Below are positions 5,284-55,380 of a stretch of DNA of 64,000 nt, one piece after another. The translations under genes and the position numbers were made by a program. The notes below the pieces were generated by a model. The model saw nothing but the letters and a program-made list of their open reading frames with translations. It had not been told where the DNA came from and did no database searches. Within the stretch, counting starts at the first letter, position 1; every line of letters begins with the position of its first letter. The DNA is taken from the NCBI GenBank assembly GCA_000165345.1, contig CM000429.1, positions 800,001-864,000 on the forward strand, in the 5' to 3' direction.

Positions 5284-5295
5284 TTTGGCGCCAAA
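5284..5295. promoter_or_regulatory. E2F-like palindromic site TTTGGCGCCAAA in the divergent patatin/TAF7 intergenic region
   Basis: Exact TTTGGCGCCAAA, the classical E2F palindrome. A GC island in AT-rich DNA. Confidence 0.5.
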
Positions 5296-5979: not shown

Positions 5980-5997
5980 TTTTGGCGGGAAATTGGG
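5980..5997 (+). promoter_or_regulatory. E2F-like site TTTTGGCGGGAAATTGGG, ~180 bp upstream of TAF7
   Basis: Near-identical 18-mer recurs at 10058-10076. Confidence 0.55.
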
Positions 5998-7282: not shown

Positions 7283-7663
7283 TTTGATCTTCAAACATCA
7301 TTTGTTTCAACTTTAAACTTTAAAAACCAAAGTTATAAAATAAAGAAAAAAATAAATAAAAATTAAAAATTATTTATTGAGCGCCAAATGCATGCAAACA
7401 CGTAATTAACATTTTTTTTACATGCATGAGTTAAAGCAATTTACCTATATAAGTATAAATATATGTTTATAAAGTTGTATATATTAATTGGACAATTTTT
7501 TTTAATTAGTAGCACCAATTGATTTGCGGTAAATTATAGCAGTGGTATTAATTAGCTGGATTTTAGAATTTGTCCTATTCTTTAATTTAAGGACAGAATA
7601 CAGTATTTCATATTTTCATTTCTTCTATTCTTTTGTCTTCTCTTTCCCCTTTTCTCCTTCACT

Positions 7664-10057: not shown

Positions 10058-10076
10058 TTTTGGCGGGAAATTCGGG
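10058..10076 (+). promoter_or_regulatory. E2F-like site TTTTGGCGGGAAATTCGGG in the divergent DLIC/secreted-protein promoter
   Basis: Same extended motif as at 5980. Confidence 0.55.
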
Positions 10077-32887: not shown

Positions 32888-32898
32888 TTTTGGCGGTA
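32888..32898 (+). promoter_or_regulatory. E2F-like TTTTGGCGGTA ~70 bp upstream of the PIG-M ATG
   Basis: GGCGG core in T-rich context. Confidence 0.4.
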
Positions 32899-32966: not shown

Positions 32967-34547
32967 ATGTTGTCGGAAAGGACGATAGGGAAGGCATTTA
33001 GGTATGTTGTAGAGCATGTATACCTTTCTACTACATGCCTACATCTGCTAGTTTTGTCTTATGGTCTTCTCCAAGATAGATTCAATGTTTCAGTCAAGTT
33101 TACTGACATTGACTATATGGTAAGTATTATTCTACTACTCAAGTGGGATTGGTATTTTTTTTATTAAAAGTACATTTGAGTTCTCAAGACTCCCACCCCA
33201 CACTTTAATATTTTCTTTGAGCCGAGTTATTCCATATTTAGGTTTTTACGGATGCAGCCAAGGCTGTTCTTCAAGGAAAGTCTCCATATACAAGGCATAC
33301 ATATAGATATACTCCCCTATTGGCATATATTGCCTCAATTAATATCATATTCAAAATGGAAATTCTTTCTAAACTACTATTTTGTGCTGTGAATATACTT
33401 TCAGGTAAAATCCTCGAATGGCTACTTATCTTGTTGGATGTAGACAACGAAACAAAGATTAAAGGAAGCGTTACTTTGAGAAGATTTCTCATTTCCACAT
33501 GGTTACTTAATCCATTTCCTGTTGTAATTGCAGCTAGAGGAAGTGCTGATATTATTCCGTCCATTCTTGTCCTTATCACAATATACTTCTTAATGAAGGC
33601 CAAATATGACAGCTTTAATAACAAAATCAATATTATTATTTCAGCATTCTTCTTTGGTCTTTCCGTTCACTTCAAACTTTATCCTGTTATATATGGCTTT
33701 CCCTTTATCTTCTTTATCAATCCAAACTATCTCAAAAAAGACAGGTCGCTATTCTGGTATATACTCAACCTTCCAATCAAGATATTTACTACTTTGAACA
33801 TAGACCAACTCATTTTTGGATTAGTCAGTTTTTCTACAATTGTTTCATTGATCTCATTCTTCTATTATCTGTATGGTTGGGAATTCCTTTATGAAACTTA
33901 TTTATATCATGCAATCAGAAAAGATCACAGACACAATTTTTCGGTCTTCTTTTATCTTTTTTACCTCACAATGTACTCAGTGAAAGAAGTCCTCGCATCC
34001 AATTTTGTATACAAAGCTCTTCCATATATTGCTTCCATCCCCCAAATGTTTTTGGTTGCATTATCAGGAATTTCTCTTGTGAGAGAAGGTGAATGTATTA
34101 TGGCTATTTTTTGTCAGACTGTCTTATTTGTGGCTTTCAACAAAGTTTGCACATCTCAATACTTCTTATGGTGGTTTATACTATTCCCTCTTGCTCTCAG
34201 AGTATATTTGACTAATAATATTGCTCAACTAGACGAATCTAAAGGGATTATTCACTCAGCAAGTGCATCATTTACCCCGATTCTTATTTCACTAGGAGTC
34301 TGGCTAATTACTAAACTTTCATGGTTATATTTTGCATATAACATAGAAATGCTTGGACAACCATACTTTTTAAGCGTAAGTTTTTAAGGAAACTAATCCT
34401 TTTTATCATTTCTTTTTTAACTAATTCTCAACTTTTTTTTTTTAGCTCTTCCATTCAAGTATACTATTCTTGTTAGCTAATATCAGTATTGTTCTGGTTT
34501 TCTTGAAAAAGAGCAATTCATCGTCACTAAGGGTCAAATCTGAATGA
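32967..34547 (+). CDS. PIGM: GPI mannosyltransferase I (PIG-M/GPI14), three exons join(32967..33119,33242..34375,34446..34547)
   Basis: Exon 1 ends ...LLQDRFNVSVKFTDIDYM|GTAAGT. Exon 2 begins at TAG|GTT TTT ACG GAT GCA GCC, that is VFTDAAKAVLQGKSPYTRHTYRYTPLL. Together they reconstitute the PIG-M signature YTDIDYQVFTDAARFV...RATYRYTPLL. The ORF track shows only 32967..33167 and 33320..34387 (TTG start). Exon 2 ends ...WLYFAYNIEMLGQPYFLS|GTAAGT, and a TTTTTTTTTAG acceptor at 34445 leads to a hydrophobic C-terminal exon (LFHSSILFLLANISIVLVFL...), stop at 34545-34547. Confidence 0.75.
33120..33241 (+). other. PIG-M intron 1 (122 nt, GTAAGT...TTTAG)
   Basis: The donor lies immediately after the DIDYM codon. 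Homology continues exactly at the acceptor (VFTDAA). Confidence 0.8.
34376..34445 (+). other. PIG-M intron 2 (70 nt, GTAAGT...T10AG), less certain
   Basis: GTAAGTTTTTAA at the end of the ORF. A poly-T/AG acceptor follows, then a 33-codon hydrophobic exon matching the expected last TM helix of PIG-M. Confidence 0.5.
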
Positions 34548-34952: not shown

Positions 34953-37043
34953 CTAAAATACAGTTACAGCTTTTGCCAATCCTCTTGGCTTATCTGGATT
35001 AATACCTCTTTTTATAGCCAAGTAATATGCTATAAGCTGTAATGGAATCACAGCATTTAAAGCAGTAAGAGGACCATTTGAAGGAATTAAAACTTTTTCA
35101 CAATCAATATCTTTGCATAAATTTTCATCATCTGTTATACAAATAACTCTAGCTCCTCTAGCCTTAACTTGCTGTGCAACATTCATCATTAAAGATTGAT
35201 TTTCGTCAGAAAGAATGACTAAAATAACAGGTGTTTGAGAATCCTTATCAATTAATGCAAAAGGTCCATGTTTTAGAGCTCCAGCTGAATAACCTTCAGA
35301 ATGTATATAAGATATTTCCTTAATTTTGAGAGCACCTTCAAGTGCTACAGGATAGCCATAACCTTTACCTAAAACAAAGATAGAGTTATTATCTTTAATC
35401 ATTTCAGCAATTTGTTCGCATTGATCTTTGGCTTGTAATGAAACTCCAACACTGATTGGAACTCTGTGAATTGCTTCAAGTAATTCCTGACATCTTTGGG
35501 AAATAACACTATCCCTATTTTGGGCAAACCAAGCAGCAATAAGTGATAATACAAGAACTTGAGTGGAGAAAGCTTTGGTAGAAGCAACAGCAACTTCCCT
35601 TCCAGCGTTCAAATAAACCCCACAGCCAGTAGTTCTAGCAAGCATAGAACCTACAACATTTACAACAGATATTTTGGGGATCCCAAGTTTATCTGCAATA
35701 TTGATGGCTTTAACAGTATCAGCAGTTTCCCCACTTTGTGAAATAGCTATAGCTCCAGCATGTTCACGTGGAAACCCAGTAACAAAAATCTCAGAAGCAT
35801 CTTTAGCACTTACTGTATTAAATCCGCTGATATGTTCCATCAAAAGCTGAGCAAATAGAGCTGCATGAAAACTTGTACCACATCCTAACAGAATCATATT
35901 TTGAACATTTTTCAATTCATCTAATCTTTGATCCAATCCTCCAAGTTTCACCATATTATTATAGGGAGAAATCCGACCTCCAAAGTTTAATGACCTTGCT
36001 AAAGCATGTGGTTGGTCGTAAATTTCTTTTAGTGTCCAATGGAGATATGGGGAAGGAGAAGACTCAACTTTTTCATGGTCAATGGATAATAATCTTGAAG
36101 GAGTAATCAATTTGTTAATACCTTCATGAGATAATAAAGCAATTTCACCATCTTGTAAAGCAACATACTGATTTGTATAATTTGCTAAAGCTGATGTTTC
36201 TGAAGCAATATAAATATGTCCAGATTGTACTCCAACAAGTAAAGGAGATCCATGTCTAGCAAGTATCATTAAATCTTTATAGTCTTTATGTAGAACAGCA
36301 ATTCCCCAAGTTCCTTGCAAACGAGAAAGAGCCTTTTGAACAGCATTTTGAAAATCCTCTCCATCATCTAGATAACTACCAATCAAGTTTGCAATTACCT
36401 CTGTATCTGTTTCTGATTGAAATTTGATTCCTTTTTCCATTAATTCAGACTTCAAAGAACAATAATTATCTATTGTACCATTATGTACAATACTAATTCT
36501 TTTTTTATAGTCTTGATGTGGATGAGCATTAAAGTCGGTCTTCCCTCCATGAGTAGCCCATCTTGTATGTGCAATACCAATATGGTGGTTTCCATGTAAT
36601 AGCTCAGAATCGTTCTTAAGCCTTTCAATTGAATCCCCAGATTCTTTAGATGAGTATTTGGTGGTTATTAATTCTCCTTGATCATCTATTGTACTCATTC
36701 CACATGAATCATACCCTCTATTTTGAAGTATTTCTATTCCCTGCATTAAAACCTTTTGAGCGTCACCTGAACCAATATATCCTATAATACCACAGCAGTA
36801 AGCTTTATTAGGAACGGAAAAAATGCTGTTTTTTCTTCCTGTTTTGCAAAGACTCCCAATACTTTCAGAAATCATTCCAAATATACGGCTTCCTCTCAAA
36901 AAATCAAGTTTTTGCTCATCTTTCATAGTCTTTGTTAACCTCTCAAATCTATAAAATTTAGATTTTTCATTCTTTTCCTTCAAATCATCATTAATACGGT
37001 TCACAATTGGCACCAAGAATTTGTATTTGGAACTAAAATTCAT
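34953..37043 (-). CDS. GFPT: Glutamine:fructose-6-phosphate amidotransferase (GFAT/GlmS) with ~83-aa N-terminal extension
   Basis: Class-II Gln amidotransferase domain CGIIGYIGSGDAQKVLMQGIEILQNRGYDSCGMS. Two SIS domains (GCGTSFHAALFAQ...; SQSGETADT...). The C-terminal ...KAVTVF resembles the conserved GFAT C-terminus. The nucleophile Cys is preceded by 83 residues from the ATG at 37043. Confidence 0.85.
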   Translation of the reverse strand: MNFSSKYKFLVPIVNRINDDLKEKNEKSKFYRFERLTKTMKDEQKLDFLRGSRIFGMISESIGSLCKTGRKNSIFSVPNKAYCCGIIGYIGSGDAQKVLMQGIEILQNRGYDSCGMSTIDDQGELITTKYSSKESGDSIERLKNDSELLHGNHHIGIAHTRWATHGGKTDFNAHPHQDYKKRISIVHNGTIDNYCSLKSELMEKGIKFQSETDTEVIANLIGSYLDDGEDFQNAVQKALSRLQGTWGIAVLHKDYKDLMILARHGSPLLVGVQSGHIYIASETSALANYTNQYVALQDGEIALLSHEGINKLITPSRLLSIDHEKVESSPSPYLHWTLKEIYDQPHALARSLNFGGRISPYNNMVKLGGLDQRLDELKNVQNMILLGCGTSFHAALFAQLLMEHISGFNTVSAKDASEIFVTGFPREHAGAIAISQSGETADTVKAINIADKLGIPKISVVNVVGSMLARTTGCGVYLNAGREVAVASTKAFSTQVLVLSLIAAWFAQNRDSVISQRCQELLEAIHRVPISVGVSLQAKDQCEQIAEMIKDNNSIFVLGKGYGYPVALEGALKIKEISYIHSEGYSAGALKHGPFALIDKDSQTPVILVILSDENQSLMMNVAQQVKARGARVICITDDENLCKDIDCEKVLIPSNGPLTALNAVIPLQLIAYYLAIKRGINPDKPRGLAKAVTVF

Positions 37044-37156
37044 TATCTATCAATTAAAATTTAAAACCTTTGATTCCAATTTTCTAAACCTTTTTCTCTC
37101 CTTATTTTTTGCCTTTTGAAATTATTGATACAAAAATATTTGCATAAAAAATATGC

Positions 37157-37254
37157 AATGGCGCCAACTCTCCCCACGCAATTATAACTTTGTATTGCTA
37201 ATTTTAATGTAAATTCAACAGTTAATATATGTGGGGTGAATTTGGCGGCAAATT
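37157..37254. promoter_or_regulatory. Paired E2F-like sites (AATGGCGCCAAC at 37157; GTGGGGTGAATTTGGCGGCAAATT at 37231-37254) in the divergent GFAT/ankyrin-TM promoter
   Basis: GGCGCCAA and TTTGGCGGCAAA with an adjacent G-box GTGGGG. Confidence 0.5.
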
Positions 37255-37446
37255 GTGAAGGTACCGTAAAGAATTTAAAAAAGGTAATAATGTCGATATA
37301 TTACAAGAAGTGAATACATGAAAATTATATTAATTAATTGATATAAAAAATTAGCAATTAAAATAAAACCAATTAGTTAATTTGGTGATAAATAGTATTG
37401 CGTATATTTTTTTTTAAGAGATTATAATGGATATTTGTGATTAACA

Positions 37447-40400
37447 ATGTCATTTTTCAAGCTGTGGGGAATATTGTTGCTGATTGCATCAGTGGAGGCA
37501 TTTCAAAATAGACTATTTAATGCATCAAGAATCGAGCTTCTTGAGGCAGAATATGCTCTAGACCGACTTGGGTTATGGAAGAAATTTGCAGATGGAAACC
37601 ATAGTGATTGTATGGAGTTTACTTTAAGAATTGACAGAATGTTGAATGCTGTTGCAAATGTTGATATTGGTGCAATGGAACAGTTTATTGAAATGGATGA
37701 ATATAGTTTAAAGTATCAGGATATTTGTGGTACAAAGGAAGAACATACAATATCAAGCTTATATGAAAATGCACCAGGCTGGGGAGGGGAAACCCCTCTA
37801 ACTATTTTGGCTAGAAGTTCACTGCCCAGAAGCAGCATAATGATGCAAGTTTTGTCATCTAAAGGTTTAGATTTTGTGAAATCTCAAATGAATGGTTTTA
37901 CCCCTCTCATTTTGGCAATAATTCATAGGAATTTTAGTGGAGTAAAGGTTCTTTTAAATTTAGCAGAAAGGCAGAAATATGCCTTAAATTTGAATAAAAC
38001 TGAAATTGTAAATAATTCACTAGATGATAAGAACACAAAAACTACTAATTCTGTATTTAGAAATGTTGAAATTATTAATGAAGTTGACTCTATGGGAAGA
38101 ACAGCTCTTTTTCATGCAGTACTGATGGAAGATGATGGAATGGTTGAATCTCTGTTAATGGCAGGTGCTGAACCAAATATTGCAGATTTCTCGGGAGTTA
38201 CTCCTCTTCTTCTTGCAACAAAGAAAAACCTTCTCGTCATTGTTAAGCTTTTACTTAGTAAAGGAGCTGATCAAATAATTCTCGATCCAAGAAACAGAGA
38301 CCCACTCTCTGTAGCAATCAAAAACAATCACCCAGACGTTATTTTAGCTTTGCTTGAGGACCAAACATTCCAAACAAAGTATTTGAATTTCTACCAGTCC
38401 TCAAGATATAAAGGTCAAATATTAAGACCTACATACCATATACGAAGACTTCTTGATATATTCACTGTACTTCAGTTAAAAGAGGAAGCTATTCAATCCT
38501 TATTCAAGATTGAGTTTCTTAGGAATGATACAAGTCTCTGTGATCTTAGAGATAACGAAGGAAGAACTATTGTTAACATTGCAACATTTAGAGAGATGTA
38601 TGATCTTCTTGAAGATGTCTTAGAATTCTACAAGAATGCATCTATTTATAGATACGAAGGCTATACAAGCTGTAATCCTCATATTATCGACAAATCTGGT
38701 AGAGGACCGGTTGACTATCTTTTAACAGGGACAGCTTCCATTCATAATTCATTTTATTCACTTGATAATACAATCAAAAATGTCAGGAAAATCAATAAAT
38801 ACTCTAATACATATGAAAGCATTTACAAAAATAATATCGAAATACAAGATCAAAAAAGAGAAAATCCATCCATAGAATTTAGTAAAATGCCCACCTCCTC
38901 ATTGAATTTTCTTTCAGATAGAAGAAAATTTCTTCTTACAAAACTTTTAAAGTTGTCAAATCCGCTGGATCTATCTTCATATTTATTTGAGCTTCTTAGA
39001 AAAGGTGGGAATCCAACTGTTTACACAATTAAAGCAATGGTCAATTGGTTAGGTGGATCTAAGGATCTTTTACTCCATAGAACCTCCAGAGATGGTCATA
39101 ATGCTCTAACTTTTGCTTTATCCACTGGTCAATTGACTGTTGCTAGAGAAATCCTTGATATTCTTTTGGATTCTCCAATTTCCAACCAAAATAGTTATAA
39201 AAGTGCTGTCAAATTAGCTATTAGTTACTCTGCAAGTGTCCATTCATCTTCAATAATTGCTGAAGTAGCACTTAGGAAACCGGTTATCGTTCATGAGTGG
39301 ATATGTGAGAGAAAATTTAATAGTATTATTGAAATTGAAGAAGTTAAATTTGTGCTTCAAAACCTTCCTCGTGAATTTATTGGTTTCTCAAAACATCCAG
39401 ATCTCTGTAAACCACTATATACCATCACAAAACAAATTCTAGACCCTGAAAGCCAAATAGAATCTACTGAAATTGTTGCAATTATGCTCGATACTAATGG
39501 TGGTTTACCCTTTTTGGAACGTTCAGATGTGACTATGGCACTCAAAACTGTTGGGACAAGCTTAAGTATTTCAGCCTCTTTTGGACTTAATATTATTCCA
39601 TGCTTAGAATGGACATCAACTATGTCATATACATTTACTCCTTATTTCTTTGATGTAATTAATAAGTTAGACACTACTATGACCAAATCCCCCCAAACTA
39701 GCCAAACTAATAAGACTCAGACCACGCAGGATTCTCAAGATATTTTAAAATGTATGAGACAAAACTTATCTAGAACAGAAAACGTAGAAAAAGATTCTTC
39801 AAGCGATTGTTTGAGCTCTTACAATGAATCTCCTAGTATAAAAGGACAAAATTCCTCTAATTTTGAAGAAAACCAAACTTTCAGCACTAATGGTTTAATG
39901 AAAAACAGCAAATATTCAAGTAATGAAAGAATAATATCACCAAAAATAAATAATCTAAAAAACCCTGGGAAAATTGTTATTAAATATGGCCTTGGATCTA
40001 CAATTACCTCTATTTTAATTGGACACGGAATTATGGCAGCCAAAAGAAATCAGATTTTAGATCTTGTATTTTCTTGTCCTCTTAGAGAAATAGACCCAAT
40101 TTTGAAAAATTTTCAAAGAAATGTTCTAGGAATAACACTATTAATTCTAGTTATTTGGATTCTAATCACTTCATTTGTGATCATTTTCTCTTCCAGAAGT
40201 AGATTGGACATATTTGGTTTTATTCCTAAGTATTCAACCTCGGAACCTGACAGACAAGCTTTTACAATGGCAGAATGGAAATTTTACAAACTTGTAAGTG
40301 TCCTACGTTTCATATCTTTTCTATATTGTATCGTTATTTTCATTTCAATTGGAAGAGTTAGACACTTATTATTTACATTGTTTTTCCTTTTTCTAGGCTT

Positions 40401-41670
40401 ATTTTTAAAACTCAACCAATTCCTACTACTCAAAGAAAATGATATTGTAGATATCACAACAGCTTTCATCAGAGAGGAAATGAGTGATAATGATAATACA
40501 GCACTAAACAAAGATTTAGAGGATAATGATGATGTTAATGACCACTCTCTAGGAATGGGAAATCCAATGCCTGCAGGAGGAAACGAGGAAACTAGACAAG
40601 AGGGAATACATCTTGGAACTATTGGAGAAGAAATCTCAGCAAGTCATTCAAGTGCAACATTTACTGATTCAAGAAACACTTTTCAAAGTGATATTGTTAA
40701 AAGAGAACATATTACAGCTGAACAATATGCCTTAACTACTTTATTTATAGGAATTTGTTCCTTTGTCATTGCAATTTCCTCAAACTTACAACGATTTCTC
40801 TTTTGGAATTTCAGAGAGTTTTATCGCTTTCATGAATCCTATTACTTTACAGTTAATCATACTTATATTGCAATTTCAACAGAAATTATTCTAATCTTAA
40901 ATACTTGGTCACTGACATTCAATATTCTTAAAGCTCCGGGACTAATGATTTTCATCCTAACTCAACGAATACAAGTTCTTCGTTACTTTTTACTTGCATA
41001 TCCTGATATTAATCAGAATATATTCAACTCTTTAAAACGAAACAATATTGGATTCATAAATAAGGAGGGTTCCCCTAATTCTTCTCCAGCTATGAATATG
41101 CACTTACCAGTTTCAAAAGGAGCAGTTTTTGTCCCTCCAGGAAGGTTTGATGTTGTACTTTGTCAATGGGTACGTGTTAGGTATGCAATCATGAAGAGAA
41201 TGCACAGAAGATTTACTGTTGCATCCAAGCCCTATAATGCACTTTATTTTGGTATTGGATTCATTGTATTTGTTTTTCTTTTTAACAAAAATAATATTGG
41301 ACATAATTTTCATCTTGGAATATTGAATTACCTCTTATTCGATGAGTTTGGCTTCACTCTTCTAACCGTATTTGCTTCCTACTCTATTACACTTATTGTA
41401 ATTGTCTGGCTTGCATGCACATCTAATCAGATTTCCGAGTTTCAGCATTGGAGGCTTTTTTGGGATGCATTTTCATTTATGCCTCCTTGCTCTGCTCAGC
41501 AGGTCGTTTTACAACATATAAAGCTTACACAAGATCTTGATGATGAGGATAAAAGAGTTGATCTTTGGAGTATTCCTATCACAAATTTTGTTAGAAATGT
41601 ACTACTTTTATGTATAGTAGTAGTTTGGGTACATATATCAATCATTGGGATCTTTCATATTTTAATATGA
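37447..41670 (+). CDS. Ankyrin-repeat polytopic membrane protein (TRP-channel-like architecture)
   Basis: Signal-peptide-like N-terminus (MSFFKLWGILLLIASVEA). Multiple ankyrin repeats (GFTPLILAIIHRNFSGVKVLL; GRTALFHAVLMEDDGMVESLLMAGAEPNIADFSGVTPLLLATKKNLLVIVKLLLSKGAD; GHNALTFALSTGQLTVAREIL). The C-terminal third has at least 6-8 predicted TM helices (ITLLILVIWILITSFVIIF; FISFLYCIVIFISIG; LFTLFFLFLGLFLKL; LFIGICSFVIAISS; YIAISTEIILILNTW; LYFGIGFIVFVFLF; LLTVFASYSITLIVIVWLA; LLLCIVVVWVHISIIGIF). Confidence 0.6.
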   Translation: MSFFKLWGILLLIASVEAFQNRLFNASRIELLEAEYALDRLGLWKKFADGNHSDCMEFTLRIDRMLNAVANVDIGAMEQFIEMDEYSLKYQDICGTKEEHTISSLYENAPGWGGETPLTILARSSLPRSSIMMQVLSSKGLDFVKSQMNGFTPLILAIIHRNFSGVKVLLNLAERQKYALNLNKTEIVNNSLDDKNTKTTNSVFRNVEIINEVDSMGRTALFHAVLMEDDGMVESLLMAGAEPNIADFSGVTPLLLATKKNLLVIVKLLLSKGADQIILDPRNRDPLSVAIKNNHPDVILALLEDQTFQTKYLNFYQSSRYKGQILRPTYHIRRLLDIFTVLQLKEEAIQSLFKIEFLRNDTSLCDLRDNEGRTIVNIATFREMYDLLEDVLEFYKNASIYRYEGYTSCNPHIIDKSGRGPVDYLLTGTASIHNSFYSLDNTIKNVRKINKYSNTYESIYKNNIEIQDQKRENPSIEFSKMPTSSLNFLSDRRKFLLTKLLKLSNPLDLSSYLFELLRKGGNPTVYTIKAMVNWLGGSKDLLLHRTSRDGHNALTFALSTGQLTVAREILDILLDSPISNQNSYKSAVKLAISYSASVHSSSIIAEVALRKPVIVHEWICERKFNSIIEIEEVKFVLQNLPREFIGFSKHPDLCKPLYTITKQILDPESQIESTEIVAIMLDTNGGLPFLERSDVTMALKTVGTSLSISASFGLNIIPCLEWTSTMSYTFTPYFFDVINKLDTTMTKSPQTSQTNKTQTTQDSQDILKCMRQNLSRTENVEKDSSSDCLSSYNESPSIKGQNSSNFEENQTFSTNGLMKNSKYSSNERIISPKINNLKNPGKIVIKYGLGSTITSILIGHGIMAAKRNQILDLVFSCPLREIDPILKNFQRNVLGITLLILVIWILITSFVIIFSSRSRLDIFGFIPKYSTSEPDRQAFTMAEWKFYKLVSVLRFISFLYCIVIFISIGRVRHLLFTLFFLFLGLFLKLNQFLLLKENDIVDITTAFIREEMSDNDNTALNKDLEDNDDVNDHSLGMGNPMPAGGNEETRQEGIHLGTIGEEISASHSSATFTDSRNTFQSDIVKREHITAEQYALTTLFIGICSFVIAISSNLQRFLFWNFREFYRFHESYYFTVNHTYIAISTEIILILNTWSLTFNILKAPGLMIFILTQRIQVLRYFLLAYPDINQNIFNSLKRNNIGFINKEGSPNSSPAMNMHLPVSKGAVFVPPGRFDVVLCQWVRVRYAIMKRMHRRFTVASKPYNALYFGIGFIVFVFLFNKNNIGHNFHLGILNYLLFDEFGFTLLTVFASYSITLIVIVWLACTSNQISEFQHWRLFWDAFSFMPPCSAQQVVLQHIKLTQDLDDEDKRVDLWSIPITNFVRNVLLLCIVVVWVHISIIGIFHILI

Positions 41671-46614: not shown

Positions 46615-46648
46615 TTTTTGGCGGTAACCCCTGTCCACATGCATGCAT
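46615..46648 (+). promoter_or_regulatory. TTTTTGGCGGTAACC + CATGCATGCA cluster in a region lacking an annotated downstream start
   Basis: E2F-like plus AP2-like motifs 75 bp upstream of the ATG at 46723. Confidence 0.4.
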
Positions 46649-55340: not shown

Positions 55341-55380
55341 TAATTGCGCCAAATTAATTCTAAATAGTTGGCGCTTAAAC
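55341..55380. promoter_or_regulatory. Two E2F-like sites (AATTGCGCCAAATT ... AGTTGGCGCTTAAAC) upstream of the 912-aa secreted-protein gene
   Basis: TTGCGCCAAA and TTGGCGCTTAAA are 12 bp apart. Confidence 0.45.

What the first reader, a model, noticed from the sequence alone, without database searches (positions are those of the whole stretch)
36780..37043. GFAT carries an ~83-residue N-terminal extension in front of its N-terminal-nucleophile cysteine
Class-II glutamine amidotransferases such as GlmS/GFAT normally begin Met-Cys, and the Cys must be residue 1 of the mature enzyme. Here the catalytic CGIIGYIG motif is preceded by 83 in-frame residues (MNFSSKYKFLVPIVNRINDDLKEKNEK...SVPNKAYC). 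There is no Met adjacent to the Cys. I could not find any GT/AG combination that would create an ATG-TGT junction. Either the extension is a propeptide or targeting peptide that must be proteolytically removed, which is known for PurF-type amidotransferases but not for GFAT, or translation starts unconventionally.
Basis: partly seen in the sequence, partly recalled or inferred. Interest (0 to 1): 0.55.

Follow-up and report, generated by a model that had tools for sequence, protein, structure and literature searches.

The report
Cleavable leader on Cryptosporidium glucosamine-phosphate synthase
The Cryptosporidium parvum enzyme that starts amino-sugar synthesis is made with an 83-residue disposable leader in front of the cysteine that must become its first residue, and nearly all protist relatives of this bacterial-type enzyme share such a leader, which no paper I could search discusses.

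Summary
ORF 34953-37043 (-) is C. parvum cgd1_3730, a 696-aa glucosamine-6-phosphate synthase of the bacterial GlmS type. Cys84 aligns with Cys1 of mature E. coli GlmS. It is preceded by 83 in-frame residues, with a TAG two codons upstream of the ATG and no splice acceptor before the TGT.

The extension is real coding sequence. It stays open in more than 10 Cryptosporidium species, only Met1 is conserved as a start, and dN/dS is 0.25 against 0.04 for the enzyme body. AlphaFold2 does not fold it, and it has no homologues of its own.

It is not peculiar to this gene. Of 117 close homologues, 105 carry 5-254 residues before the Cys, and all those with an organism name are eukaryotic. These leaders end in a conserved A/V(-3), D/E/H(-2), C/A/N/T(-1) motif. 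Most look like mitochondrial presequences, and published fractionation and BioID data place the Toxoplasma and Plasmodium orthologues with mitochondria.

Best reading: a cleavable presequence that must be cut at Cys83|Cys84, probably autocatalytically as in PurF-type enzymes. Neither the cleavage nor the location in Cryptosporidium has been tested. An unconventional start or a mis-annotated start is not supported. This is a new variant of a known kind, of moderate interest.

The parts
34953..37043 (-). [quoted passage not shown] The stop codon is 34953-34955.
   Evidence: ORF list. 100% identical to C. parvum Iowa II XP_628184.1. Pfam GATase_6/7 plus two SIS domains. Gene id from PMC5838249 supplement.
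36795..37043 (-). N-terminal extension, residues 1-83, read here as a presequence or pro-region.
   Evidence: It has no Pfam hit and pLDDT below 50 in AlphaFold2. It finds no homologue on its own among 1.84 billion representatives. Omega is 0.25 against 0.04 for residues 84-696. It is open in all Cryptosporidium species examined.
36990..37043 (-). Conserved N-terminal segment MNFSSKYKFLVPIVNRIN, residues 1-18. It has 3 basic and 0 acidic residues and resembles a targeting signal.
   Evidence: The pattern M..x.KYxFLxPIxxRI is the only conserved block inside the extension across Cryptosporidium species. Charge count.
36792..36806 (-). Predicted processing site K80-A81-Y82-C83 | C84, with the scissile bond between codons 83 and 84.
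   Evidence: K-A/V-x-C-C-G-I is conserved in all Cryptosporidium species. Family-wide, position -3 is A 68, V 17; -2 is E 28, D 28, H 13; -1 is C 47, A 29, N 16, T 8, out of 105. Cys84 aligns with Cys1 of mature GlmS.
36084..36794 (-). Class II (N-terminal-nucleophile) glutaminase domain, residues 84 to about 320.
   Evidence: Pfam GATase_6/7. Aligns with the E. coli GlmS glutaminase domain 1XFF residues 1-221. High pLDDT.
34956..36056 (-). Isomerase (synthase) domain with two SIS repeats, residues about 330-696.
   Evidence: Pfam SIS, two stretches, E 8e-46. Aligns with isomerase-domain structures 1MOQ and 2POC.
37047..37049 (-). In-frame TAG two codons upstream of the start codon. It closes the reading frame.
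   Evidence: Read directly from the sequence.
37044..37446 (.). The 403-bp divergent intergenic region shared with the ankyrin-repeat gene at 37447-41670 (+). It contains an E2F-like TTTGGCGG at 37241-37248 and GGCGCC at 37160-37165.
   Evidence: Sequence. Motif scan found 9 matches against 1.1 expected in the window. That this region is the promoter is an inference.

Best explanation
The 249 bases before the catalytic-cysteine codon are genuine coding sequence. C. parvum cgd1_3730 is translated from the ATG at 37043 as a 696-residue precursor of a bacterial-type (GlmS-like) glucosamine-6-phosphate synthase. Residues 1-83 are an unstructured, fast-evolving presequence, not a domain.

This is the Cryptosporidium version of a leader that almost every eukaryotic member of this GlmS-like clade carries. 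In most lineages the leader looks like a mitochondrial bipartite presequence: a basic, acid-free N-region followed by a hydrophobic stretch. It always ends in a short conserved motif directly in front of the Cys: A/V at -3, D/E/H at -2, C/A/N/T at -1. Cryptosporidium has lost the hydrophobic stretch but kept the basic N-terminal segment and the K-A-x-C|C motif.

Class II amidotransferases use the free alpha-amino group of Cys1 as well as its thiol. The leader must therefore be cut exactly between Cys83 and Cys84 to give an active 613-residue enzyme. I infer that this final cut is autocatalytic, an N-terminal-nucleophile self-processing step as in PurF/GPRAT enzymes of the same MEROPS family C44. 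I infer that the remainder of the leader is a relic, or a still-working version, of an organelle-targeting signal.

Shown: the reading frame, its conservation and constraint, its family-wide occurrence, the motif, and an intact glutaminase site. Inferred: removal of the leader, where it is cut, self-cleavage, and the mitochondrial ancestry of the leader.
For: Translation and constraint:
- The frame is open, with an upstream in-frame TAG, and the chance of a stop-free run this long is below 0.001.
- Met1 and the leader are present in C. parvum, hominis, meleagridis, chipmunk genotype, ubiquitum, canis, felis, bovis and one further species, while the internal Mets are not conserved.
- Omega is 0.25 for the leader against 0.04 for the enzyme body, at dS about 0.9.

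Not a domain:
- pLDDT is below 50 for residues 1-83 and about 90 or more elsewhere.
- There is no Pfam match and no homologue of the leader alone.

Family-wide occurrence:
- 105 of 117 homologues have an extension. Twelve start Met-Cys; the two of these that carry an organism name are Patescibacteria MAGs.
- The -3/-2/-1 motif is strongly conserved, while positions -4 to -8 are not.
- The motif persists whether or not a hydrophobic stretch lies nearby: A at -3 in 26 of 40 with one and 35 of 57 without. This points to a requirement of the enzyme itself rather than of a membrane peptidase.

Need for a free Cys1:
- Cys84 aligns with Cys1 of mature E. coli GlmS, and the glutaminase residues are invariant.
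- The N-terminal cysteine is crucial for GlmS catalysis, and deleting or replacing it abolishes complementation (PMC11822699).

Precedent for the proposed architecture:
- Arabidopsis GPRAT2 has a chloroplast transit peptide followed by a propeptide that is removed autocatalytically, even in E. coli, exposing Cys87 (PMC7056826).
- GFAT and PPAT belong to the same MEROPS family C44 (PMC9140057; PMC8621943).

Mitochondrial ancestry of the leader:
- Family N-regions have a median of 5 basic and 0 acidic residues in the first 25, and a net charge of +7.
- 40 of 101 have a 17-residue hydrophobic window ending a median of 8.5 residues before the Cys.
- The Toxoplasma GFAT hyperLOPIT profile correlates r 0.76-0.85 with TOM40, porin, ATP-B and cytochrome c1, and -0.71 with cytosolic GAPDH1.
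- Toxoplasma GFAT was captured by ApiCox35-BioID together with cytochrome c (PMC12292971).
- P. falciparum GFPT sits beside DHODH and HSP60 on the hyperLOPIT t-SNE map; PF3D7_0616800, which I recall to be malate:quinone oxidoreductase, lies there too.
- Oomycete GFAT is predicted to be mitochondrial.
Against: - There is no direct evidence that the C. parvum protein is cleaved at all, or where. I could reach no N-terminal proteomics, no transcript 5' end and no localisation data for cgd1_3730. The C. parvum hyperLOPIT paper is not held, and the 2026 sporozoite proteome has no held supplements.
- Self-processing has never been shown for any GlmS/GFAT.
- From my own knowledge, the known PurF propeptides are about 11 residues, end in E-E, and lack the A-x-small motif.
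- A/V at -3 and a small residue at -1, about 5-12 residues after a hydrophobic stretch, is also what type-I signal-peptidase-like enzymes recognise. By my recollection this includes the mitochondrial inner membrane peptidase, with Asn or Ala at -1. Peptidase cleavage therefore remains a serious alternative.
- The Toxoplasma fractionation is mixed in one of three experiments, where it looks ER-like (r 0.85 with SERCA). One paper labels the protein 'Plastid'.
- The held files did not include the published class assignment for either orthologue.
Confidence: 0.6

Rival explanations
1. The leader is a working mitosome-import signal. It is removed by an organellar processing peptidase, either an inner-membrane-peptidase or signal-peptidase-type enzyme or MPP, and not by the enzyme itself. 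GFAT would then become active only after import.
For: The (-3,-1) small-residue pattern with a hydrophobic stretch just upstream occurs in many relatives. Family N-regions are basic and acid-free, and the first 18 residues of the C. parvum leader are too. The Toxoplasma and Plasmodium orthologues co-fractionate with mitochondria, and there is a BioID hit. Toxoplasma, Besnoitia and Hammondia have Arg at -2, which is MPP-like by my own knowledge.
Against: C. parvum has no hydrophobic core: the best 17-residue Kyte-Doolittle mean is 0.55. By my own knowledge, type-I signal-peptidase-like enzymes need such a core. The motif is equally conserved in lineages without a nearby hydrophobic stretch. Most relatives have D or E at -2, which is unlike MPP sites. 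After residue 18 the C. parvum leader is rich in both K and E, which is atypical for a matrix presequence. The mitosome is highly reduced (PMC11601642), and I could not test whether an S26 peptidase exists in the genome.
Confidence: 0.2
2. The extension is translated but never removed. The protein works as an N-terminally blocked enzyme, for example using ammonia, or the leader acts as a permanent regulatory or anchoring tail.
For: No cleavage has been demonstrated. The leader is under some purifying selection (omega 0.25) and has a conserved N-terminal block, which could reflect a function in the mature protein.
Against: The whole glutaminase catalytic apparatus is invariant, which makes no sense for a glutaminase-dead enzyme. 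The N-terminal Cys is essential for GlmS (PMC11822699). The best-conserved leader positions are the three directly before the Cys, as expected for a cleavage site. The leader is predicted to be disordered. The pathway enzyme is strongly fitness-conferring in Toxoplasma, with a score of -4.57.
Confidence: 0.07
3. The annotated start is wrong. The true N-terminus would be created by an unannotated intron, an internal or non-AUG start, or a sequencing error, so that the protein really begins Met-Cys.
For: Only the general expectation that GlmS/GFAT begins Met-Cys. An old C. hominis TU502 model (XP_667116.1, 597 aa) starts elsewhere.
Against: No AG precedes the TGT or the TGC. The in-frame codon before Cys84 is TGC, which is not a near-cognate start. 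The TU502 model begins at Met100, downstream of the catalytic Cys, and so lacks it, which marks it as an artefact. The same architecture, with no Met at -1, recurs in 105 homologues, including transcriptome-derived ORFs. The leader shows codon-level constraint.
Confidence: 0.03

Closest known systems
Bacterial GlmS (E. coli glucosamine-6-phosphate synthase; PDB 2J6H, 1JXA, 4AMV)
   Same: The two proteins are collinear over the whole mature length: residues 84-695 against 1-607, E about 1e-113. Both have a class II glutaminase domain followed by two SIS repeats, with identical catalytic signatures.
   Different: GlmS is translated as Met-Cys and only the Met is removed. The C. parvum protein has 83 residues in front of the Cys.
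PurF/GPRAT-type amidophosphoribosyltransferases with propeptides (B. subtilis PurF; Arabidopsis GPRAT2), MEROPS family C44
   Same: They share the glutaminase fold and the N-terminal Cys nucleophile. The Cys is unmasked by removing a leader. In the plant enzyme an organelle transit peptide is followed by an autocatalytically removed propeptide (PMC7056826). GFAT is filed in the same MEROPS family.
   Different: The acceptor domain is a different one. By my own knowledge the PurF propeptide is short, about 11 residues, and has a different end sequence. Self-cleavage has been demonstrated there and has not been tested here.
Bipartite mitochondrial intermembrane-space presequences (cytochrome b2 or c1 type) cut by the inner membrane peptidase. 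This comparison rests on my own knowledge.
   Same: In many relatives there is a basic acid-free N-region, then a hydrophobic stretch, then small residues at -3 and -1, including Asn or Ala at -1.
   Different: The C. parvum leader lacks the hydrophobic stretch. The motif is kept where no hydrophobic stretch is near. No localisation data exist for C. parvum.
Canonical eukaryotic GFAT1/2 (human GFPT1, PDB 6R4E)
   Same: They catalyse the same reaction and have the same two-domain logic. The isomerase domains align well (residues 275-695, E about 1e-101).
   Different: By my own knowledge the human type starts Met-Cys (MCGIFAY). It aligns with the C. parvum protein in two pieces only, whereas E. 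coli GlmS aligns in one.
Oomycete GFAT PITG_02122, predicted mitochondrial (bioRxiv 10.64898/2026.07.27.741032)
   Same: It is a GFAT reported to carry a predicted mitochondrial targeting peptide.
   Different: That report is a prediction. It does not discuss the consequence for the N-terminal nucleophile. It states that non-stramenopile GFATs are cytoplasmic, which the apicomplexan data here contradict.

Membership tests
GlmS/GFAT, glutamine:fructose-6-phosphate amidotransferase (EC 2.6.1.16) | Class II (N-terminal-nucleophile) glutaminase domain with its catalytic signature residues | tested here: met
   Pfam GATase_6 (4e-22) and GATase_7 (1e-16). C84, R109, R161, W162, T164, H165, N188, G189 and D213 are invariant in 118 sequences.
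GlmS/GFAT, glutamine:fructose-6-phosphate amidotransferase (EC 2.6.1.16) | C-terminal isomerase domain made of two SIS repeats | tested here: met
   Pfam SIS, two stretches, 8e-46. Aligns with 1MOQ, 2POC and 2ZJ3.
GlmS/GFAT, glutamine:fructose-6-phosphate amidotransferase (EC 2.6.1.16) | Full-length collinearity with a solved GlmS | tested here: met
   Residues 84-695 align with 1-607 of 2J6H and 1JXA in a single stretch, E about 1e-113. The AlphaFold2 model has pTM 0.82.
GlmS/GFAT, glutamine:fructose-6-phosphate amidotransferase (EC 2.6.1.16) | The catalytic Cys is encoded directly after the initiator Met | tested here: not met
   The Cys is residue 84, with no adjacent Met and no usable splice acceptor. 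The mature enzyme can still satisfy the requirement for an N-terminal Cys, but only after proteolysis.
GlmS/GFAT, glutamine:fructose-6-phosphate amidotransferase (EC 2.6.1.16) | Glutamine-dependent GlcN-6-P synthesis | not testable with these tools
   This needs an enzyme assay or complementation of an E. coli glmS nagB double mutant.
Self-processing class II amidotransferase precursors (MEROPS C44, PurF/GPRAT type) | The propeptide ends immediately before the nucleophilic Cys of a class II glutaminase fold | tested here: met
   A conserved three-residue motif precedes the Cys across the clade.
Self-processing class II amidotransferase precursors (MEROPS C44, PurF/GPRAT type) | Short propeptide of about 11 residues | tested here: inconclusive
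   The leader has 83 residues. It could be composite, a targeting part plus a short pro-part, as in Arabidopsis GPRAT2, but no boundary is visible in the sequence.
Self-processing class II amidotransferase precursors (MEROPS C44, PurF/GPRAT type) | Cleavage is autocatalytic and depends on the Cys | not testable with these tools
   This needs recombinant precursor, with and without a C84A substitution, analysed by mass spectrometry.
Mitochondrial bipartite presequence cleaved by a type-I signal-peptidase-like enzyme | Basic, acid-free amphipathic N-terminal region | tested here: inconclusive
   In C. parvum residues 1-18 have 3 basic and 0 acidic residues, but residues 19-50 are rich in both K and E. 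The family median is 5 basic and 0 acidic in the first 25. No dedicated predictor was available.
Mitochondrial bipartite presequence cleaved by a type-I signal-peptidase-like enzyme | Hydrophobic sorting core a few residues upstream of the cleavage site | tested here: not met
   The best 17-residue Kyte-Doolittle mean in C. parvum is 0.55, and the other Cryptosporidium species reach at most 1.32. The feature is met in 40 of 101 relatives, at 1.6 or above and ending a median of 8.5 residues before the Cys.
Mitochondrial bipartite presequence cleaved by a type-I signal-peptidase-like enzyme | Small or aliphatic residue at -3 and small residue at -1 | tested here: met
   A81 and C83 in C. parvum. 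In the family, -3 is A, V, S or T in 98 of 105, and -1 is C, A, N, T or S in 102 of 105.
Mitochondrial bipartite presequence cleaved by a type-I signal-peptidase-like enzyme | Organellar localisation of the protein | not testable with these tools
   No data on C. parvum could be reached. The Toxoplasma and Plasmodium orthologues fractionate with mitochondrial markers.
ER signal peptide | N-terminal hydrophobic core of about 7-15 residues within the first 30 or so residues | tested here: not met
   The only hydrophobic run is FLVPIV, 6 residues with a Pro in it. No 17-residue window exceeds a Kyte-Doolittle mean of 0.55.

The most novel reading that the evidence does not exclude
The leader is a functional import signal. 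C. parvum GFAT would then be a mitosome enzyme, in the intermembrane space or the matrix, whose catalytic cysteine is unmasked only on import. More broadly, the first committed step of hexosamine synthesis would be mitochondrial in apicomplexans and many other protists, with enzyme activation coupled to presequence removal. Amino-sugar synthesis would then be one of the few metabolic reasons for Cryptosporidium to keep its relict mitochondrion.
Probability: 0.15. Interest if true: 0.8.

Novelty: new variant of a known kind. Interest (0 to 1): 0.5.

Why it matters
GFAT is the entry point to UDP-GlcNAc and UDP-GalNAc. Cryptosporidium needs these for its mucin-type O-glycans, N-glycans, GPI anchors and oocyst wall. 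This statement is my own knowledge. The orthologue is strongly fitness-conferring in Toxoplasma, with a score of -4.57.

If the active enzyme exists only after the leader is removed, several things follow.
- Recombinant constructs for drug screening or crystallography must begin at Cys84. Full-length or N-tagged constructs will be dead unless they self-process.
- The processing step is itself a parasite-specific vulnerability, because host GFAT needs only Met removal.
- GlmS/GFAT would join PurF and glutamate synthase as a third class II amidotransferase lineage that uses a propeptide.
- The published fractionation data for Toxoplasma and Plasmodium would imply an unrecognised mitochondrial location for the first hexosamine step in a large part of eukaryotic diversity. 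This contradicts the current assumption that it is cytosolic outside stramenopiles.

All of this can be tested with one recombinant protein and one tagged parasite line.

Tried and rejected
- Splicing to create an ATG-TGT junction is rejected. No AG lies before the TGT or the TGC. The acceptor-like AAAG four codons upstream would still not place a Met next to the Cys.
- A non-AUG start at codon 83 is rejected. TGC differs from AUG at all three positions.
- The internal Mets, Met40 and Met57, are rejected as the true start. They are replaced by L, or by T and V, in sister species, and neither is adjacent to the Cys.
- An ER signal peptide or transmembrane anchor in C. parvum is rejected. There is no adequate hydrophobic window.
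- The idea that the leader is an extra domain is rejected. It has no Pfam hit, no confident fold, and zero hits for the leader alone in 1.84 billion representatives.
- Literature on a GFAT propeptide or leader: ten full-text searches found no paper that discusses one.
- C. parvum localisation or peptide evidence could not be obtained. The Guerin 2023 hyperLOPIT paper is not held. The 2026 sporozoite proteome does not mention the enzyme and has no held supplements.
- The published hyperLOPIT class labels for TGME49_231350 and PF3D7_1025100 were not in the held, truncated files. I used correlation of the raw Toxoplasma profile with 18 named proteins, and t-SNE neighbourhood for Plasmodium. This is indicative only.
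- I could not test whether Cryptosporidium encodes an inner-membrane-peptidase (S26) homologue. No tool searches a eukaryotic genome by family.
Full report
**1. What is there**

The minus-strand ORF 34953..37043 encodes 696 residues. It is 100% identical to 'glucosamine-fructose-6-phosphate aminotransferase' of Cryptosporidium parvum Iowa II, XP_628184.1. The gene is cgd1_3730 (PMC5838249 supplement). Pfam finds a class II glutaminase domain (GATase_6/7) and two SIS repeats, and nothing in residues 1-83.

Residues 84-695 align in one collinear stretch with residues 1-607 of mature E. coli GlmS (2J6H, 1JXA; E about 1e-113). Human GFAT1 aligns less well and only in two pieces. The protein is therefore a bacterial-type GlmS, and Cys84 (TGT, 36794-36792) corresponds to the N-terminal nucleophile Cys1.

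An in-frame TAG lies two codons upstream of the ATG. No Met is adjacent to the Cys. The dinucleotides before the TGT and before the preceding TGC are GC and AC, so no splice acceptor can create an ATG-TGT junction.

**2. Is the extension real coding sequence?**

- At this composition (31% G+C) only 0.0003-0.0009 of shuffled sequences leave 82 codons free of stops.
- The frame is open from a conserved Met1 in C. parvum (two alleles), C. hominis, C. meleagridis, the chipmunk genotype, C. ubiquitum, C. canis, C. felis, C. bovis and one further species. Leader lengths range from 60 to 115 residues.
- Met40 and Met57 of C. parvum are not conserved, so they are not alternative starts.
- Between C. 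parvum and C. ubiquitum, with DNA from locus L001, dN/dS is 0.25 for codons 1-83 and 0.04 for codons 84-696, at dS about 0.8-1.0. The leader is translated and constrained, but much less than the enzyme body.
- Conserved blocks are the N-terminal M..x.KYxFLxPIxxRI, a central RFERL, and K-A/V-x-C immediately before CGI.
- AlphaFold2, run with a 118-sequence alignment, gives pLDDT below 50 for residues 1-83 and about 90 or more for the rest, with pTM 0.82.
- The leader alone finds no homologue in 1.84 billion cluster representatives.

The extension is an unstructured, fast-evolving leader and not a domain.

**3. It is a family trait, not a peculiarity of this gene**

Among the 120 best homologues, the catalytic Cys could be located in 117. 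Of these, 105 carry residues in front of it, ranging from 5 to 254 and typically 40-100, with no Met at -1. Those with an organism name are all from eukaryotes, apart from a bee record discussed below:

- Apicomplexa: Eimeria, Cyclospora, Toxoplasma, Besnoitia, Hammondia, Plasmodium, Hepatocystis, Cardiosporidium and gregarines.
- Chromera.
- Dictyostelids.
- Spongospora and Cercozoa.
- MMETSP and EukProt transcriptomes.

The 12 sequences that start Met-Cys are 607-621 residues long. The two that carry a name are Patescibacteria MAGs.

Positions -8 to -4 are variable. The last three positions are conserved (counts out of 105):

| Position | Residues |
|---|---|
| -3 | A 68, V 17, S 8, T 5 |
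| -2 | E 28, D 28, H 13 |
| -1 | C 47, A 29, N 16, T 8 |

C. parvum has A81-Y82-C83; a second C. parvum allele has H82.

Upstream of the motif, most leaders look like mitochondrial presequences:

- The first 25 residues have a median of 5 basic and 0 acidic residues.
- The first acidic residue is at a median position of 35.
- The median net charge is +7.
- 40 of 101 have a 17-residue window with a Kyte-Doolittle mean of 1.6 or above, ending a median of 8.5 residues before the Cys and starting a median of 58 residues from the N-terminus.

Cryptosporidium retains the acid-free basic start (3 basic and 0 acidic residues in positions 1-18) and the end motif. It has lost the hydrophobic stretch, with a best window of 0.55.

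**4. Where the orthologues are**

I found no paper that discusses the leader. Published datasets do bear on it.

- *Toxoplasma fractionation.* In the Toxoplasma hyperLOPIT data (PMC7670262), the 30-fraction profile of TGME49_231350 correlates with mitochondrial proteins as follows: TOM40 r = 0.85, porin 0.82, SDHA 0.78, ATP-B 0.77, cytochrome c1 0.76. In two of the three experiments r is 0.92-0.99. It anticorrelates with cytosolic GAPDH1 (-0.71) and TCP-1 (-0.58). In the third experiment there is an ER-like admixture, r 0.85 with SERCA.
- *Toxoplasma BioID.* TgGFAT was captured by BioID with the complex IV subunit ApiCox35, alongside cytochrome c. That table labels it 'Plastid' (PMC12292971).
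- *Plasmodium fractionation.* In the P. falciparum schizont hyperLOPIT map (PMC13369866), GFPT lies at (-31, -80). Nearby are DHODH, classified as mitochondrion, at (-24, -75), HSP60 at (-21, -75), and PF3D7_0616800, which I recall to be malate:quinone oxidoreductase, at (-24, -80). PF3D7_1015900, which I recall to be enolase, lies far away at (2, 97).
- *Oomycete prediction.* A July 2026 preprint predicts Phytophthora GFAT to be mitochondrial and states that it is cytoplasmic in all non-stramenopiles.
- *Babesia annotation.* A Babesia microti protease survey lists GFAT in MEROPS C44 with catalytic 'C40', which implies a 39-residue leader, without comment.

These data are indirect. The published class labels were not in the held files. 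Together they make a cytosolic location unlikely for the coccidian orthologue, and they fit a mitochondrial-type presequence. Nothing comparable could be reached for C. parvum.

**5. How it most likely works**

Class II amidotransferases use the thiol and the free alpha-amino group of Cys1. This is established enzymology. PMC11822699 describes the N-terminal cysteine as crucial for GlmS and shows that deleting or replacing it abolishes complementation. The entire glutaminase signature is invariant in the leader-bearing clade, so the enzymes are expected to be glutamine-dependent. They must therefore lose the leader exactly at the -1|Cys bond, which is Cys83|Cys84 in C. parvum.

Two mechanisms fit.

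*(a) Self-processing.* This is the hallmark of N-terminal-nucleophile folds. It is documented for the sister enzyme family. [quoted passage not shown]' In Arabidopsis GPRAT2 a chloroplast transit peptide is followed by such a propeptide, which is removed even in E. coli to expose Cys87 (PMC7056826). GFAT and PPAT share MEROPS family C44.

*(b) Cleavage by an organellar type-I signal-peptidase-like enzyme.* The small residues at -3 and -1 after a hydrophobic stretch fit this. So does the frequent Asn or Ala at -1, which I recall as the preferences of mitochondrial Imp1 and Imp2.

The discriminating observation available here is that the -3/-2/-1 motif is just as conserved in the 57 sequences with no hydrophobic stretch within 30 residues as in the 40 that have one: A at -3 in 35 of 57 against 26 of 40. 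The first group includes Cryptosporidium, Plasmodium, the Toxoplasma group and dictyostelids. A membrane peptidase needs that stretch; the enzyme's own active site does not.

I therefore favour a composite leader. It would have a variable targeting part, which in Cryptosporidium is degenerate along with its relict mitochondrion, and a short pro-motif that the enzyme removes itself.

My estimates are:

| Statement | Probability |
|---|---|
| The leader is translated | about 0.95 |
| The leader is removed | about 0.85 |
| The last cut is autocatalytic | about 0.45 |
| The last cut is made by a peptidase | about 0.3 |
| The leader descends from a mitochondrial presequence | about 0.6 |

**6. Rejected readings**

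- An unconventional or mis-annotated start is contradicted by the conservation, the codon-level constraint and the family-wide pattern. The old 597-aa C. hominis TU502 model starts at Met100 and lacks the catalytic Cys, so it is an artefact.
- A permanently retained leader is contradicted by the intact glutaminase site and by the fact that the best-conserved leader positions are those at the junction.
- An ER signal peptide or membrane anchor is not present in C. parvum.

**7. Comparison and novelty**

The gene model is public and the enzyme family is ordinary. What is not in the literature I could search is that GlmS-type GFATs of a large part of protist diversity are made as precursors whose nucleophile is unmasked by leader removal. 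This would be a third class II amidotransferase lineage, after PurF and, from my own knowledge, glutamate synthase. The apicomplexan orthologues also behave as mitochondrial proteins. I rate this a new variant of a known kind. Interest is moderate (0.5): it is unexpected for GFAT specialists, directly testable, and relevant to using the enzyme as a drug target. It remains a sequence-level inference for Cryptosporidium itself.

Noticed in passing
window 5284-5295, 5981-5988, 7381-7388, 10059-10066, 32889-32896, 37241-37248, 46617-46624, 55346-55353: The E2F-like motif TTTGGCG[C/G] occurs 9 times against 1.1 expected (0 of 100 shuffles reach 9). By comparison with the long-ORF map, all sites fall between ORFs, including the divergent GFAT/ankyrin intergenic region. 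It is probably a Cryptosporidium promoter element.
   Followed up: partly
window 36798-36800 (codon 82): Position -2 of the predicted cleavage site is polymorphic within C. parvum. It is Tyr in the window and Iowa II (P0001), and His in other C. parvum records (P0122) and in most other species. C. hominis has Val instead of Ala at -3.
   Followed up: no
protein P0125 (C. hominis TU502 XP_667116.1, 597 aa): This older gene model begins at the residue equivalent to Met100 (MQGIEILQNRGYDS...). It therefore lacks both the leader and the catalytic cysteine, which makes it an annotation artefact that would predict a dead enzyme.
   Followed up: partly
protein P0078 (record named Hylaeus volcanicus, a bee; 648 aa): This GlmS-type GFAT has a 34-residue leader ending MAKC|CGIVGYIG, the apicomplexan-style C-C junction, yet it sits in an insect assembly on a 2.76-Mb contig. 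It may be a parasite contaminant or a gene transfer.
   Followed up: no
protein P0023 (Chromera velia, 1160 aa): The Chromera orthologue has an 89-residue leader with a clear hydrophobic stretch. It is about 460 residues longer than the others and has an additional PF13230 hit, so it may be a fusion or a long insertion.
   Followed up: no
window 37447-41670 (+) and 33320-34387 (+); locus L001: The neighbours are conserved in C. ubiquitum. Upstream and divergent is a protein of about 1400 aa with ankyrin repeats and, by eye, a long hydrophobic C-terminal half. Downstream and convergent is a PF05007 mannosyltransferase gene, which I take to be PIG-M-like.
   Followed up: no
Toxoplasma orthologue TGME49_231350 (literature): It is labelled 'Plastid' in PMC12292971 Table 2. 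Its hyperLOPIT profile anticorrelates with the apicoplast marker CPN60 (r -0.41) and tracks mitochondrial markers. The Sarcocystidae leaders are 224-254 residues long and have Arg at -2.
   Followed up: partly
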